A stretch of DNA of 10,260 nt, from the UHGV virus genome UHGV-0142786. One strand, 5' to 3'. Position numbers and translations under genes: made by a program. This document shows, in pieces, positions 8,589-10,260 of this stretch. Position 1 is the stretch's first letter, and each line of letters starts with the position of its first letter. This stretch comes from a virus. Below the pieces are notes generated by a model. That model was not told the origin of the DNA. It made no database searches and worked only from the letters and a program-made list of their open reading frames with translations.

Positions 8589-9063
8589 CCAACCAACTCC
8601 GTTAGGGCGAGTTCAAGACGGTAAAACCGAACTGCTTATAAATGAGGTCGCAAAGAACCCTCAAGTTCTTGAGCGCCTCATGGACAGGCCAGATCTAGCT
8701 GGCATCATGATGCAGGTGACTCACACTAGATCAGGGCCACTCCCAGACGCTGACGAATTAGCTAAGTACGAAAGAATATCTCCAGGATTCGCTCGCGAAA
8801 TAATGGACATGGCTAAGGCTGAGCAAAAACACAGACACGAGTATTACAAAGCAGGACAGAGGGGAGCAATTTGGCGAGATCGACTCGGACAGATCTTTGC
8901 GATGACTTCTGTCTTTGTTTTCGCAGGAATTGCTTACAAGATGATTCAGCACGAGGCTTATGGCTGGGCTACCGGGCTTCTTGGTGCTGAGTTAGTTGCT
9001 TTAACTAGCGTGTTTATAATTGGAAGAAGAGACAAACCGAATCCAAAGCAAACTAAAAAATGA
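8530..9063 (+). CDS. Hypothetical membrane protein with two C-terminal transmembrane helices, possibly DUF2335-like
   Basis: 177-aa ORF. Motif LPDADELAKYERISPGFAREIMDMAKAEQKHRHEY followed by hydrophobic IFAMTSVFVFAGIAY and WATGLLGAELVALTSVFIIG. The DUF2335 assignment is from memory and unverified. No clear Shine-Dalgarno at 8530. Confidence 0.6.
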   Translation: MSRKKSQRKLQTAAPRNLVNQPTPLGRVQDGKTELLINEVAKNPQVLERLMDRPDLAGIMMQVTHTRSGPLPDADELAKYERISPGFAREIMDMAKAEQKHRHEYYKAGQRGAIWRDRLGQIFAMTSVFVFAGIAYKMIQHEAYGWATGLLGAELVALTSVFIIGRRDKPNPKQTKK

Positions 9064-9066
9064 GAC

Positions 9067-9093
9067 AACCCGGCTTCCGCGCCGGGTTTTCTT
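9067..9093 (+). terminator. Rho-independent terminator closing the cI/rex-position operon
   Basis: Stem CCCGGC (9069-9074) / GCCGGG (9081-9086), then TTTTCTTT, directly after the stop at 9063. Confidence 0.7.
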
Positions 9094-9277
9094 TGCCTAA
9101 CGCCCCCAAAAAAACACATAACCAATTGTATTTATTTTAAAATTAATAGATACAACTCACTAAACAACGCAATTCTGATCTCTCCCTACATCGCCGAGGC
9201 AATACACCCACGCTAAAAAACAACACTATTAAATACAAAGCGTTGTAAAAAACCACCCCTCAATAGAACAAATCGTA

Positions 9278-9306
9278 TTGACCAGATAAAGTACATATCG
9301 TACTAT
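9278..9306 (+). promoter_or_regulatory. Candidate PL promoter
   Basis: TTGACC (9278-9283), 17-bp spacer, TACTAT (9301-9306), upstream of nutL and N. TACAA/TTGTA palindromes nearby at 9234-9247 and 9124-9134 may be OL sites. Confidence 0.4.
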
Positions 9307-9352
9307 TTAATCATCAGCAGGACGCTGGAAGCCAAATGGAACAGACTGGCAG

Positions 9353-9398
9353 GCTCTTTAAACAACGTCGAACACTCGACTACGTGGCTGAAAAGCCA
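9353..9398 (+). promoter_or_regulatory. nutL candidate: boxA-like GCTCTTTAA and boxB-like hairpin UGGCUGAAAAGCCA, 23 nt apart
   Basis: boxA at 9353-9361 (GGCTCTTTAAACAA resembles rrn boxA); boxB hairpin at 9385-9398. Same layout as the nutR candidate. Confidence 0.55.
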
Positions 9399-9422
9399 GA
9401 CCACCCAACCACATAAGCTGTG

Positions 9423-9472
9423 GGATGCAATGCCGAAGCAACCGGCTCAGGAGGAGCTTCGAGATTGCATCG
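9423..9472 (+). other. Long imperfect hairpin in the N leader, candidate RNase III processing or translational control structure
   Basis: GATGCAAT (9423-9430) pairs with ATTGCATC (9465-9472); CGAAGC (9433-9438) pairs with GCTTCG (9456-9461). Lies between nutL and the N Shine-Dalgarno GGGAGG (9486-9491). Confidence 0.4.
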
Positions 9473-9496
9473 CCAAAGTTTATTCGGGAGGAATCT

Positions 9497-9769
9497 ATGT
9501 CCAGAAAAACAGAATTTAAAGGCACCGCAGCTTCTCGCCGTAGAGCTCGTCGTGCAAACCTGCAAAGTCAGGAGGCGATCAGCTCTGACAAACTACACAG
9601 GCCAACCCCTTCACGAGTGGTCTTACAATGCAAACGCAAACCAGTAATGAGAGCAGAAGTAATAACACTGACAACGTTGACCAGAAAATATGAAGGCTCA
9701 ACTTGTCTTCCAAATGTAGCCATTTACGCGGCAGGCTACAGGAAATCCAAACAGCTGACAGCAAGATGA
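9497..9769 (+). CDS. N: N-type transcription antiterminator (90 aa)
   Basis: Arginine-rich motif GTAASRRRARRANLQ near the N-terminus; C-terminus LPNVAIYAAGYRKSKQLTAR resembles my recollection of P22 gene 24 (LPGVALYAAGHRKSKQITAR). Track ORF from 9425 is over-extended; ATG 9497 follows GGGAGG. Confidence 0.8.
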   Translation: MSRKTEFKGTAASRRRARRANLQSQEAISSDKLHRPTPSRVVLQCKRKPVMRAEVITLTTLTRKYEGSTCLPNVAIYAAGYRKSKQLTAR

Positions 9770-9819
9770 CTTGTGTTGGTCGCCAGAAAATGAAATTAGG
9801 CAGCAAACCACTTATTTGA
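9766..9819 (+). pseudogene. Fossil 3' end of a lambda-type N gene (17 codons), recombination scar
   Basis: Translation MTCVGRQKMKLGSKPLI resembles the lambda N C-terminus ITCSGRQKIKGKSIPLI. Starts one nucleotide before the functional N stop, in the +1 frame. Confidence 0.45.
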
Positions 9820-9827
9820 GGTGAGAT

Positions 9828-9914
9828 ATGGAAGAAGAATTTGAAGAGTTCGAAGAGCATCCTCAGGATGTGATGGAACAATACCAGGACTATCCGTATG
9901 ACTGCGACTATTGA
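9828..9914 (+). CDS. Candidate small acidic protein (28 aa)
   Basis: Hand translation MEEEFEEFEEHPQDVMEQYQDYPYDCDY. Strong GAGGTGA Shine-Dalgarno 6 nt upstream of ATG 9828. Too short for the ORF track; no homology recognised. Confidence 0.35.
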   Translation: MEEEFEEFEEHPQDVMEQYQDYPYDCDY

Positions 9915-10041
9915 TAAGAATCAATGGTGTGGGCAATACGAACGACGGCAATGATTGTCAGAGAACTTGGTAAACAGAACAACAAAGCTGCCTGATAGTG
10001 GCCTTTATTTTTGGCATAAATAACAGAATAAACACTGCACT

Positions 10042-10069
10042 GTGTATTCATTCCAACGAGTGAATACAC
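10042..10069. other. Inverted repeat GTGTATTCA / TGAATACAC with a 10-nt spacer
   Basis: Perfect 9-bp arms (10042-10050 and 10061-10069). Not followed by a T-run, so not an intrinsic terminator; could be a protein-binding site or RNA structure. Confidence 0.3.
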
Positions 10070-10131
10070 GGAGCAATGTCGCTCGTAACTAAACAGGAGC
10101 CGACTTGTTCTGATTATTGGAAATCTTCTTT

Positions 10132-10157
10132 GCCCTCCAGTGTGAGGGCGATTTTTT
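10132..10157 (+). terminator. Rho-independent terminator (tL1-like) downstream of N
   Basis: Stem GCCCTC (10132-10137) / GAGGGC (10144-10149), loop CAGTGT, then GATTTTTTAT. Confidence 0.6.
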
Positions 10158-10177
10158 ATCTGTGAGGATATGAATAG

Positions 10178-10260
10178 ATGTCAAACATCAAAAAATACAT
10201 CATTAATTACGACTGGAAAGCATCAATAGAAATTGAAATCGACCATGACGTAATGACAGA
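10178..10260 (+). CDS. Hypothetical protein, 5' end only; runs off the right edge of the window
   Basis: ATG 10178 preceded by GAGGA (10164-10168); open frame MSNIKKYIINYDWKASIEIEIDHDVMT continues to the window end. No homology recognised. Confidence 0.4.
   Translation, partial: MSNIKKYIINYDWKASIEIEIDHDVMT

What the first reader, a model, noticed from the sequence alone, without database searches (positions are those of the whole stretch)
9828..9914. Strongly acidic 28-aa micro-ORF with a near-consensus Shine-Dalgarno just downstream of N
MEEEFEEFEEHPQDVMEQYQDYPYDCDY has about 12 acidic residues and no basic ones; GAGGTGA lies 6 nt upstream of the ATG. Highly acidic small phage proteins often act as DNA mimics or inhibitors of host nucleic-acid-binding proteins. 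This is inference from composition alone.
Basis: inference. Interest (0 to 1): 0.4.

Follow-up and report, generated by a model that had tools for sequence, protein, structure and literature searches.

The report
Phage lambda orf28 acidic micro-gene
The 28-codon acidic ORF is a real, conserved gene, the counterpart of phage lambda's long-annotated but uncharacterised orf28, and it almost always sits against a gene that helps phages escape host restriction enzymes, which gives a testable clue to its function.

Summary
Window 9828-9914 (+) encodes MEEEFEEFEEHPQDVMEQYQDYPYDCDY (12 acidic residues, no K/R). GAGGTGA lies at 9818-9824, and the ORF starts 58 nt after an N-type antiterminator gene.

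It is not new. It matches lambda orf28 (lambdap47, NC_001416 34271-34357) at 27 of 28 residues and belongs to PHROG 16060, function unknown. In this window ral is dead, with a 103-nt frameshifting deletion.

It is a real gene. In sequences collected through Ral, not through the ORF:
- 42 of 45 unique variants keep it.
- Variable sites fall 6/5/19 on codon positions 1/2/3.
- pN/pS is 0.18, against 0.16 for ral and 1.3-2.8 in other frames.
- Indels are in frame, and an SD is kept although upstream DNA is unalignable.

Of 85 unique ORF-anchored contexts:
- 64 have intact Ral.
- 12 have a Ral remnant.
- 6 have an unrelated Lar-family restriction-alleviation gene whose stop the peptide's start overlaps.
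- 3 have neither.

My best reading is an accessory micro-protein of the restriction-alleviation module. This is inferred, not shown. DNA mimicry is untested. Interest is modest.

The parts
9278..9306 (+). pL-like sigma-70 promoter (TTGACC, 17 nt, TACTAT) that would drive N, the micro-ORF and what follows
   Evidence: Consensus scan only. It sits where VT2-Sakai annotates its major leftward promoter and operators upstream of N.
9497..9769 (+). N-type antiterminator gene (90 aa, 933W/H-19B type), upstream neighbour in the same operon
   Evidence: ORF list. phrog_271 'anti-termination protein N-like' at E 6e-26. Corresponds to the annotated N of VT2-Sakai.
9783..9819 (+). Remnant of the 3' end of another N allele (reads RQKMKLGSKPLI*). 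Its TGA sits inside the micro-ORF's Shine-Dalgarno
   Evidence: In BTP1 and many IMG/VR contigs a full N gene ends ...KPLI* with its stop 8 nt before the micro-ORF ATG. In the window the same tail follows the 933W-type N stop.
9818..9824 (+). Shine-Dalgarno GAGGTGA of the micro-ORF
   Evidence: Sequence. A purine-rich SD (GAGG, AGGG or AAGG) 5-9 nt before the start is kept in all 20 distinct upstream variants listed. DNA further upstream differs at 66% of positions.
9828..9914 (+). The finding: orf28 ortholog, a 28-codon acidic micro-protein gene (MEEEFEEFEEHPQDVMEQYQDYPYDCDY)
   Evidence: Matches lambda orf28 (lambdap47) at 27 of 28 residues. phrog_16060 at E 3.6e-18. pN/pS 0.18, with variable sites 6/5/19 by codon position.
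9886..9889 (+). AGGA inside the micro-ORF (codons Gln20-Asp21), 8 nt before the ral ATG. A possible ral ribosome-binding site
   Evidence: Sequence. CAGGA is invariant in the aligned variants. It is also kept in Lar-linked copies that have no ral, so it cannot be explained by ral alone.
9898..9995 (+). ral pseudogene. ATG at 9898 overlaps the micro-ORF by 17 nt. A 103-nt internal deletion (junction about 9929/9930) shifts the frame, giving MTATIDKNQWCGQYERRQ* (stop 9952-9954). The out-of-frame C-terminal remnant ...WAIRTTAMIVRELGKQNNKAA* runs to 9995
   Evidence: Alignment with lambda, 2B8 and BTP1 (A1). The same deletion occurs in phage ECP1 and in 18 unique IMG/VR stretches.
9907..9928 (+). 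Small hairpin ACTATTGAT-AAGA-ATCAATGGT that contains the micro-ORF stop codon and ral codons 4-10. Weak candidate for a translational-coupling element
   Evidence: Predicted in most single-sequence folds. It is the best-kept helix of a weak consensus structure (-7 kcal/mol), with one compensatory change and one G-U change in 13 sequences. Not established.
9987..10012 (+). Terminator-like hairpin plus T-run at the end of ral. It closes the variable gene slot that holds the micro-ORF
   Evidence: Scan. A similar GGCTGC...GCAGCC plus T-run follows the peptide gene directly in the Lar-linked modules.

Best explanation
Shown: the ORF is the ortholog of phage lambda orf28 (lambdap47), differing only at Y26C. 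It lies in the early leftward (pL) operon, 58 nt after N, with no intrinsic terminator predicted between them. It has its own strong Shine-Dalgarno, and its last 17 nt overlap the start of ral. The amino-acid sequence itself is under purifying selection about as strong as that on Ral, so it is a protein-coding gene and not a chance ORF. Inferred: the product is a 3.6-kDa peptide with charge about -12. It has an acidic Phe-containing N-terminal half (EEEFEEFEE), an invariant His-Pro, and a Tyr/Asp tail (YQDYPYDxDY). I think it most likely works as an accessory of the phage's restriction-alleviation module. Ral and the unrelated Lar protein are small Cys-rich proteins believed to push type IA restriction-modification enzymes such as EcoKI towards methylating unmodified phage DNA. 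The peptide would be made at the same moment and from the same mRNA stretch, through start/stop overlap with ral or lar. It would act by binding either these proteins or the same host enzyme on a basic, nucleic-acid-binding surface. Ribosomes finishing the micro-ORF probably also help load the ral start, as a secondary cis effect. In this window ral is a pseudogene, so only the peptide can be made. Whether it still does anything alone is open. My confidence is above 0.95 that this is orf28, about 0.9 that it is a selected and translated gene, and about 0.35-0.4 for the link to restriction alleviation. The score given is for the whole statement.
For: Identity:
- Lambda annotation and translation.
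- phrog_16060 at E 3.6e-18 over the full 28-residue profile.
- The lambda sequence is on record in NCBI and UniProt.

Real gene, using sequences collected through Ral and not through the ORF:
- 42 of 45 unique stretches keep an intact 23-30-codon ORF. In 41 of these the ral ATG is in the same place and the overlap is 17 nt.
- Variable sites in the non-overlapping codons 2-23 fall 6/5/19 on codon positions 1/2/3 (chi-square p 0.002).
- pN/pS is 0.18, against 2.76 and 1.29 in the other sense frames and 2.0 and 2.8 in the two open antisense frames.
- ral in the same sequences has pN/pS 0.16.
- Mean pairwise nucleotide difference is 0.66 upstream and 0.15 inside the ORF.
- Length changes are in frame, for example 23 codons with a GTG start in Kluyvera.
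- An SD is kept in all variants.

The peptide, not ral's ribosome-binding site, is what is conserved:
- Nine contigs have the peptide gene and no ral. There, 16 variable sites fall 0/3/13 on codon positions 1/2/3.

Link to restriction alleviation, in 85 unique contexts found through the peptide only:
- 64 have intact Ral downstream.
- 12 have a Ral remnant.
- 6 have a Lar-family gene upstream. It matches Pfam PF14354 at 36.6 bits against a cutoff of 28.6, and its stop overlaps the peptide's start (GTGGGTGA).
- 3 have neither.
- The pairing also holds for much more diverged Ral proteins (L310, L318, L049, L315; PF11058).

Background:
- Ral and Lar are both believed to enhance de novo methylation by EcoKI, by an unknown mechanism (PMC3177214; PMC12707154).
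[quoted passage not shown] That fits an accessory, host-dependent function (PMC10695390).
Against: - No experiment on orf28 function was found in the searchable literature.
- Translation was not checked directly. The lambda ribosome-profiling paper is not held.
- The N-to-ral junction is a recombination hot spot with very diverse upstream neighbours, so adjacency to Lar could come from insertion at that junction and not from shared function.
- Lar of the Rac prophage has no such peptide next to it.
- Distant Ral homologs in phages GZMU_E2010 and W5_chr3 have none either.
- Each gene can be lost without the other. ral is deleted or broken with the peptide gene intact in 18 of 18 unique deletion alleles. 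The peptide gene is broken with ral intact in L239 and L270, and replaced by another ORF in L260.
- From background knowledge, which I could not verify here, Ral was defined genetically as the 66-codon ORF.
Confidence: 0.4

Rival explanations
1. Stand-alone early effector unrelated to restriction. The acidic peptide binds some other host or phage protein, such as a nucleic-acid-binding protein, a protease adaptor or the Arg-rich N protein. It sits next to ral or lar only because that junction of the pL operon is where small accessory genes accumulate.
For: The peptide gene stays intact in all 18 unique ral-deletion alleles. It is under clear purifying selection in contigs with no ral. Three contexts have neither Ral nor Lar (L311, L324, L325). 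Upstream neighbours are highly diverse. The same operon encodes other small host-directed peptides, Kil and CIII.
Against: 82 of 85 peptide-anchored unique contexts have Ral, a Ral remnant or Lar directly overlapping or abutting the peptide gene. This includes two unrelated protein families with the same reported activity. A random neighbour would not be expected to be joined by start/stop overlap in both arrangements.
Confidence: 0.3
2. Double-stranded DNA mimic in the manner of Ocr or ArdA. The carboxylates imitate the phosphate backbone and block the DNA-binding groove of a type I enzyme or another DNA-binding protein.
For: 12 acidic residues in 28, with 10-13 acidic and at most one basic residue in all 17 distinct 28-residue variants. 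Genomic association with anti-restriction genes.
Against: The known DNA mimics I am aware of are folded proteins or dimers of roughly 50-170 residues (background knowledge). A 28-residue peptide could imitate only a few base pairs. The conserved positions are mostly aromatic or His/Pro (F8, H11, P12, M16, Y19, Y22, Y24, Y28), not a periodic acidic pattern. There is no similarity to any solved structure or family. Nothing here tests binding.
Confidence: 0.12
3. Pure leader ORF. Only the act of translating it matters, to deliver ribosomes to the overlapping ral start or to open the small hairpin at 9907-9928. The peptide has no function of its own.
For: The 17-nt overlap with the ral ATG is kept in the 41 Ral-anchored variants whose ral ATG is in the same place. 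Where the micro-ORF is replaced (L260), another ORF overlaps ral by ATGA. A hairpin spanning the stop codon recurs.
Against: A sequence-independent leader should evolve with pN/pS near 1. The observed value is 0.18, equal to Ral itself. The peptide is equally conserved where no ral follows and where ral is dead. ral has its own AGGA 8 nt upstream of its ATG. The consensus RNA structure is weak, at -7 kcal/mol with one compensatory pair.
Confidence: 0.08
4. Chance ORF kept only because lambdoid phages share nearly identical DNA in this module.
For: Most database copies are 95-100% identical in DNA. Short ORFs are frequent here. PGAP does not annotate it in the two E. coli RefSeq regions I inspected.
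Against: Diverged copies from Providencia, Kluyvera and IMG/VR keep frame, length and SD. They change mainly at third codon positions.
Confidence: 0.02

Closest known systems
Phage lambda orf28 (lambdap47, NP_040623.1; PHROG 16060)
   Same: 27 of 28 residues identical. Same length, same SD context, same position before ral with the same 17-nt overlap.
   Different: One substitution, Y26C, which is T3A in the overlapping ral frame. In lambda sieB lies between N and orf28, whereas here a 933W-type N is 58 nt upstream. Here ral is a deletion pseudogene.
Ral (Pfam PF11058) and Lar/RalR (Pfam PF14354) restriction-alleviation proteins
   Same: Same operon position and physically overlapping genes. 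Co-occurs with one or the other in 82 of 85 peptide-anchored contexts. Small, early-expressed and non-essential.
   Different: No sequence relationship. Ral and Lar are 60-99-residue Cys-rich proteins, while the micro-protein has no conserved Cys and is extremely acidic. Any role of the peptide in restriction alleviation is inferred, not shown.
Ocr, ArdA and other DNA-mimic anti-restriction proteins (background knowledge)
   Same: Strong negative charge, phage or mobile-element origin, early expression, possible target in type I restriction-modification.
   Different: Those are folded proteins several times larger, with charge patterns matching B-DNA. There is no homology, and the conserved residues here are mainly aromatic.
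T4 Stp, a 26-residue peptide that modulates a type I restriction enzyme (EcoprrI); lambda Kil and CIII small peptides (background knowledge; Kil and CIII also)
   Same: Precedent that phage peptides of 26-54 residues act directly on host enzymes, including a type I restriction-modification enzyme. Kil and CIII lie in the same pL operon.
   Different: As I recall it, Stp is not acidic. I ran no sequence comparison with Stp. Kil and CIII have different targets.
Upstream or leader ORFs used for translational coupling
   Same: Stop/start overlap with the downstream gene. A different ORF takes the same place in L260.
   Different: The peptide sequence is strongly constrained, and it persists without a downstream partner.

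Membership tests
lambda orf28 / PHROG 16060 | Sequence match to the family profile over its whole length | tested here: met
   phrog_16060 at E 3.6e-18, residues 1-28 on profile 1-28. 27 of 28 residues identical to lambda orf28.
lambda orf28 / PHROG 16060 | Position in the pL operon between N (or sieB) and ral, with its stop overlapping the ral start by 17 nt | tested here: met
   Window coordinates, lambda annotation and alignment A1. ral is present only as a deletion remnant.
lambda orf28 / PHROG 16060 | Translated into a peptide in infected or induced cells | not testable with these tools
   Indirect support only: a conserved SD and a protein-type substitution pattern. The lambda ribosome-profiling paper is not held.
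DNA-mimic anti-restriction proteins (Ocr/ArdA type) | Homology or fold similarity to a known mimic | tested here: not met
   No hit among PDB sequences at E up to 10. No hit in Pfam, NCBIfam or PADLOC. At 28 residues it is below the 30-residue minimum of the structure-prediction tool.
DNA-mimic anti-restriction proteins (Ocr/ArdA type) | Acidic surface that competes with DNA for a DNA-binding protein | not testable with these tools
   Only composition is known: 12 acidic residues, charge about -12.
Restriction-alleviation module (Ral/Lar partners) | Consistent genomic coupling to a restriction-alleviation gene | tested here: met
   82 of 85 peptide-anchored unique contexts. 42 of 45 Ral-anchored unique stretches. 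Lar and Ral assignments by Pfam above the curated cutoffs.
Restriction-alleviation module (Ral/Lar partners) | Effect on restriction or modification by a type IA system | not testable with these tools
   No published test was found. [quoted passage not shown]
Sequence-independent leader ORF for translational coupling | Overlap of its stop with the downstream start | tested here: met
   The 17-nt overlap is kept in the 41 variants whose ral ATG is in the same place.
Sequence-independent leader ORF for translational coupling | Peptide sequence free to vary | tested here: not met
   pN/pS 0.18. Fourteen of 28 positions are invariant across 17 distinct peptides. The peptide is conserved without ral.

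The most novel reading that the evidence does not exclude
orf28-family peptides are dedicated partners of two unrelated restriction-alleviation proteins, Ral and Lar. One possibility is a minimal acidic/aromatic nucleic-acid mimic that docks on the type I methyltransferase together with them. Another is that the peptide holds in check the DNA-directed activity of Lar/RalR-type proteins. Either would make it the smallest known anti-restriction component, hidden in the best-studied phage.
Probability: 0.2. Interest if true: 0.6.

Novelty: already known. Interest (0 to 1): 0.3.

Why it matters
The ORF has been in the lambda annotation for decades and is catalogued as a PHROG of unknown function, so the sighting itself is not new. 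What this work adds is modest but usable.
- The peptide is as constrained as Ral.
- It survives where ral is deleted.
- It is fused by overlap to either of two unrelated restriction-alleviation genes.

The mechanism of Ral and Lar is still described as unknown (PMC3177214). If the peptide takes part, past experiments that cloned or deleted 'ral' with or without the overlapping micro-ORF would need re-reading. One example is the delta-orf28-ral strains of PMC2327257. It is also a reminder that the annotations I inspected often leave it out. PGAP omits it in the two RefSeq E. coli regions examined, and the P22 and BTP1 records do not annotate it. The region occurs in 882 of 5426 complete E. coli genomes.

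Tried and rejected
- The search for homologous proteins refuses queries under 40 aa. The representative-library search and structure prediction need at least 30 aa and accept only window sequences, so neither could be used.
- tblastn of the peptide against phages returned only 5 hits, probably because the low-complexity filter masks the acidic half. I switched to degenerate DNA patterns.
- The first Ral-based scan of IMG/VR returned only lambda-identical loci. The GTDB scan was dominated by lambda DNA in unrelated assemblies. Patterns that exclude lambda-type Ral solved this.
- Antisense gene: rejected. The two open antisense frames have pN/pS of 2.0 and 2.8, and the third has stops in 22 of 24 sequences.
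- Structured RNA: no Rfam family in 9000-10260 apart from one chance-level hit. The consensus fold of 13 diverse sequences is weak.
- Rac prophage: no orf28-like ORF beside ralR.
- Literature: no functional study of orf28 was found. The lambda ribosome-profiling paper and the lambda review were not held.
- I considered a programmed frameshift fusing the micro-ORF to Ral but did not pursue it. I saw no slippery site, and ral has its own ATG and AGGA.

Full report
**1. The observation**

Window 9828-9914 (+) is an ATG-to-TGA ORF of 28 codons encoding MEEEFEEFEEHPQDVMEQYQDYPYDCDY. It has 8 Glu and 4 Asp, no Lys or Arg, one His, and a computed charge of about -12. GAGGTGA lies at 9818-9824. The ORF begins 58 nt after the stop of a 90-codon gene (9497-9769). 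That gene is an N-type antiterminator, matching phrog_271 at E 6e-26 and corresponding to the annotated N of VT2-Sakai. A pL-like promoter lies at 9278-9306, and no terminator-like site is predicted between N and the ORF. Taken alone it is not remarkable, because 29 ORFs of at least 20 codons overlap this 1.26-kb stretch.

**2. What it is**

The region matches 398 phage records. In the lambda reference genome the same ORF is annotated as orf28 (lambdap47, NP_040623.1, complement 34271-34357). Lambda encodes MEEEFEEFEEHPQDVMEQYQDYPYDYDY, which differs from the window at one residue, Y26C.

- The ORF matches PHROG 16060, a 28-position profile of unknown function, at E 3.6e-18.
- It has no hit in Pfam, NCBIfam, PADLOC or among PDB sequences.
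- The exact lambda peptide is on record in NCBI and in UniProt. UniProt entry Q38269_LAMBD labels it 'Ral(Restriction alleviation66)'.
- The region is present in 882 of 5426 complete E. coli genomes.
- In the two RefSeq regions I inspected, PGAP annotates only the neighbouring Ral gene.
- The P22 and BTP1 records also leave it unannotated, although P22 encodes the identical peptide.

**3.

In lambda the last 17 nt of orf28 overlap the start of ral, the restriction-alleviation gene. The window has the same ral ATG at 9898. Alignment with lambda, 2B8 and BTP1 shows a 103-nt internal deletion (A1). It shifts the frame, giving MTATIDKNQWCGQYERRQ* followed by an out-of-frame C-terminal remnant that runs to 9995. 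ral is therefore a pseudogene here while the micro-ORF is intact.

The same deletion allele is present in phage ECP1, which does annotate the micro-ORF. It also occurs in 18 unique IMG/VR stretches, and the micro-ORF is intact in all 18. I estimate that about 11% of random substitutions would destroy this ORF, and only about nine substitutions are seen among these alleles. This retention alone is therefore not significant.

**4. Is it a gene?**

To avoid selecting for the ORF itself, I collected relatives through Ral, using the pattern CKLDAECMV, which excludes lambda-type Ral.

- Of 45 unique stretches, 42 carry an intact ORF of 23-30 codons in the same place. In 41 of them the ral ATG is in the same place and the overlap is 17 nt.
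- The three exceptions are a nonsense codon (L239), a deletion of the 5' half (L270) and replacement by another ORF (L260).
- Across 24 unique 87-nt sequences (23 from the scan plus lambda), variable sites in codons 2-23, which do not overlap ral, fall 6/5/19 on codon positions 1/2/3 (chi-square p 0.002).
- pN/pS is 0.18 in this frame. It is 2.76 and 1.29 in the other two sense frames, and 2.0 and 2.8 in the two antisense frames that lack stops.
- ral in the same sequences gives 0.16.
- Mean pairwise nucleotide difference is 0.66 in the 45 nt further upstream, 0.34 over the SD region and 0.15 inside the ORF. Every upstream variant keeps a purine-rich SD.
- Length differences are in frame. The Kluyvera copy has 23 codons and a GTG start, and the Providencia copy has 28 codons.
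- Invariant positions across 17 distinct peptides are E6, E7, F8, H11, P12, D14, M16, Y19, Q20, Y22, Y24, D27 and Y28.

It is a protein-coding gene whose peptide sequence matters. Direct evidence of translation could not be checked, because the lambda ribosome-profiling paper is not held.

**5. Context as a clue to function**

I scanned IMG/VR with two patterns taken from the peptide only. This gave 85 unique contexts with enough flank:

| Context | Unique contexts |
|---|---|
| Intact Ral downstream | 64 |
| Ral remnant downstream | 12 |
| Lar-family gene upstream | 6 |
| Neither | 3 |

- Three further Lar-linked copies lie at contig edges.
- The Lar-family gene matches Pfam PF14354 at 36.6 bits against a cutoff of 28.6. 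Lar is unrelated to Ral in sequence.
- In the Lar-linked modules the peptide most likely starts at a GTG 6 nt after GGGAG, giving 26 codons, MGEDEFEEHPDDDMSQYQDYPFDYDY. That start overlaps the Lar stop (GTGGGTGA).
- No ral follows in these modules. A terminator-like hairpin comes straight after the peptide gene.
- Among these nine contigs, 16 variable sites fall 0/3/13 on codon positions 1/2/3. The peptide is therefore selected where ral is absent. The conserved YQDY segment cannot be explained as ral's ribosome-binding site.
- The pairing with Ral also holds for much more diverged Ral proteins (L310, L318, L049, L315; PF11058).

Ral and Lar are both believed to enhance de novo methylation by the type IA enzyme EcoKI. 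The mechanism is described as unknown (PMC3177214; PMC12707154).

Limits to this argument:
- The N-ral junction is a recombination hot spot with many different upstream neighbours.
- Lar (RalR) of the Rac prophage has no such peptide beside it.
- Distant Ral homologs in phages GZMU_E2010 and W5_chr3 have none.
- Either gene can be lost alone.

**6. Most likely mechanism**

Shown: the gene is early, pL-driven and SD-equipped, its peptide is constrained, and it is coupled by overlap to a restriction-alleviation gene.

Inferred: the peptide is an accessory of that module. It would be made together with Ral or Lar, and would act on them or on the same host enzyme through a basic surface. Ribosomes terminating at its stop probably also help ral initiation. 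A small hairpin at 9907-9928 spans the stop codon, but support for it is weak, with one compensatory change in 13 sequences and a consensus energy of -7 kcal/mol.

I put about 0.35-0.4 on the link to restriction alleviation. The rivals are:
- A stand-alone effector with another target (0.3).
- A true double-stranded DNA mimic (0.12). It is disfavoured by the peptide's size and by the aromatic character of the conserved residues.
- A sequence-independent leader ORF (0.08), contradicted by pN/pS and by persistence without ral.
- A chance ORF (0.02).

**7. What is known**

The only published facts I could find are these:
- orf28 is listed as a hypothetical protein.
- Laboratory lambda strains deleted for orf28-ral are viable (PMC2327257).

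No functional study turned up.

**8. Verdict**

The feature is real and is already known as an annotated ORF of unknown function. Interest is modest. The added value is evidence that this overlooked micro-gene is as constrained as Ral and travels with two unrelated restriction-alleviation genes, which gives simple decisive experiments.

Noticed in passing
window 9898-9995: ral is a pseudogene, with a 103-nt internal deletion between short TGG-containing repeats that shifts the frame. The same allele circulates in phage ECP1 and in 18 unique IMG/VR stretches, with further point changes in the remnant.
   Followed up: yes
window about 10070-10158 (terminator hairpin 10130-10151): The ral-ea10 intergenic region is 99% identical to lambda's. 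It should therefore encode the Hfq-dependent sRNA LPR1/PreS, which ends at tL2a and up-regulates host dnaN (bioRxiv 10.1101/2024.10.31.621285; PMC12197685). The exact 5' end was not mapped here. Rfam has no model that hits it.
   Followed up: partly
L001 1927-2178 (VT2-Sakai H0090); same slot as window 9828-9995: Stx phages such as VT2-Sakai and PA4 carry a different 83-codon gene (phrog_2471, unknown function) in place of orf28 plus ral. The exchange joints lie at the shared SD/ATGGAA start and at the shared ...AAGGCTGCCTGA end. The slot behaves as a swappable cassette.
   Followed up: partly
window 9783-9819: The stretch between the 933W-type N stop and the micro-ORF reads RQKMKLGSKPLI*. This matches the C-terminus of other N alleles, whose stop lies inside the micro-ORF's SD (BTP1 and many IMG/VR contigs). 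It looks like a fossil of an N-allele replacement.
   Followed up: partly
L307, L313, L314, L319, L320 (about 40 nt after the peptide stop): In the Lar-peptide modules the next gene encodes a 24-28-residue hydrophobic peptide, for example MISTGNYIFGWLVIGVLMGLGFIAGG, with its own GGAGG SD. Function unknown.
   Followed up: no
L260 (IMGVR_UViG_2851013770_000001): Here the micro-ORF is replaced by an unrelated 66-codon ORF (MAKITFGFCGAEK...). It uses the same SD, and its stop overlaps the ral ATG (ATGA). It has no Pfam hit.
   Followed up: no
L006-L021, L024, L026, L027, L029 (GTDB genome contigs): Contigs with 100% lambda-identical ral appear in assemblies of Pseudoxanthomonas, Nocardioides, Shewanella, Paenibacillus, Bradyrhizobium and others. 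Many are short and low-coverage or are about 48.5 kb long. This most likely reflects lambda DNA contamination of those assemblies.
   Followed up: no
lambda orf28 protein record: UniProt entry Q38269_LAMBD carries the orf28 sequence under the name 'Ral(Restriction alleviation66)'. This looks like a label carried over from the overlapping gene.
   Followed up: no
PMC10695390 supplementary files 3 and 6: The crRNA oligo listed for lambdap46 (ral) is identical to the one listed for lambdap49 (N). The raw 'ral' well shows an efficiency of plating of about 2e-4, while the main table gives ral as 1.1. This is a possible mix-up in that dataset. It does not affect orf28.
   Followed up: no
L318, L323, L049, L325 (upstream of the peptide gene): Other small Cys-rich ORFs precede the peptide gene in some contigs. 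Two types were seen, CPWC...CxCxxC and CPVCG...C. Neither reaches the Lar Pfam threshold. They could be further zinc-ribbon partners.
   Followed up: partly
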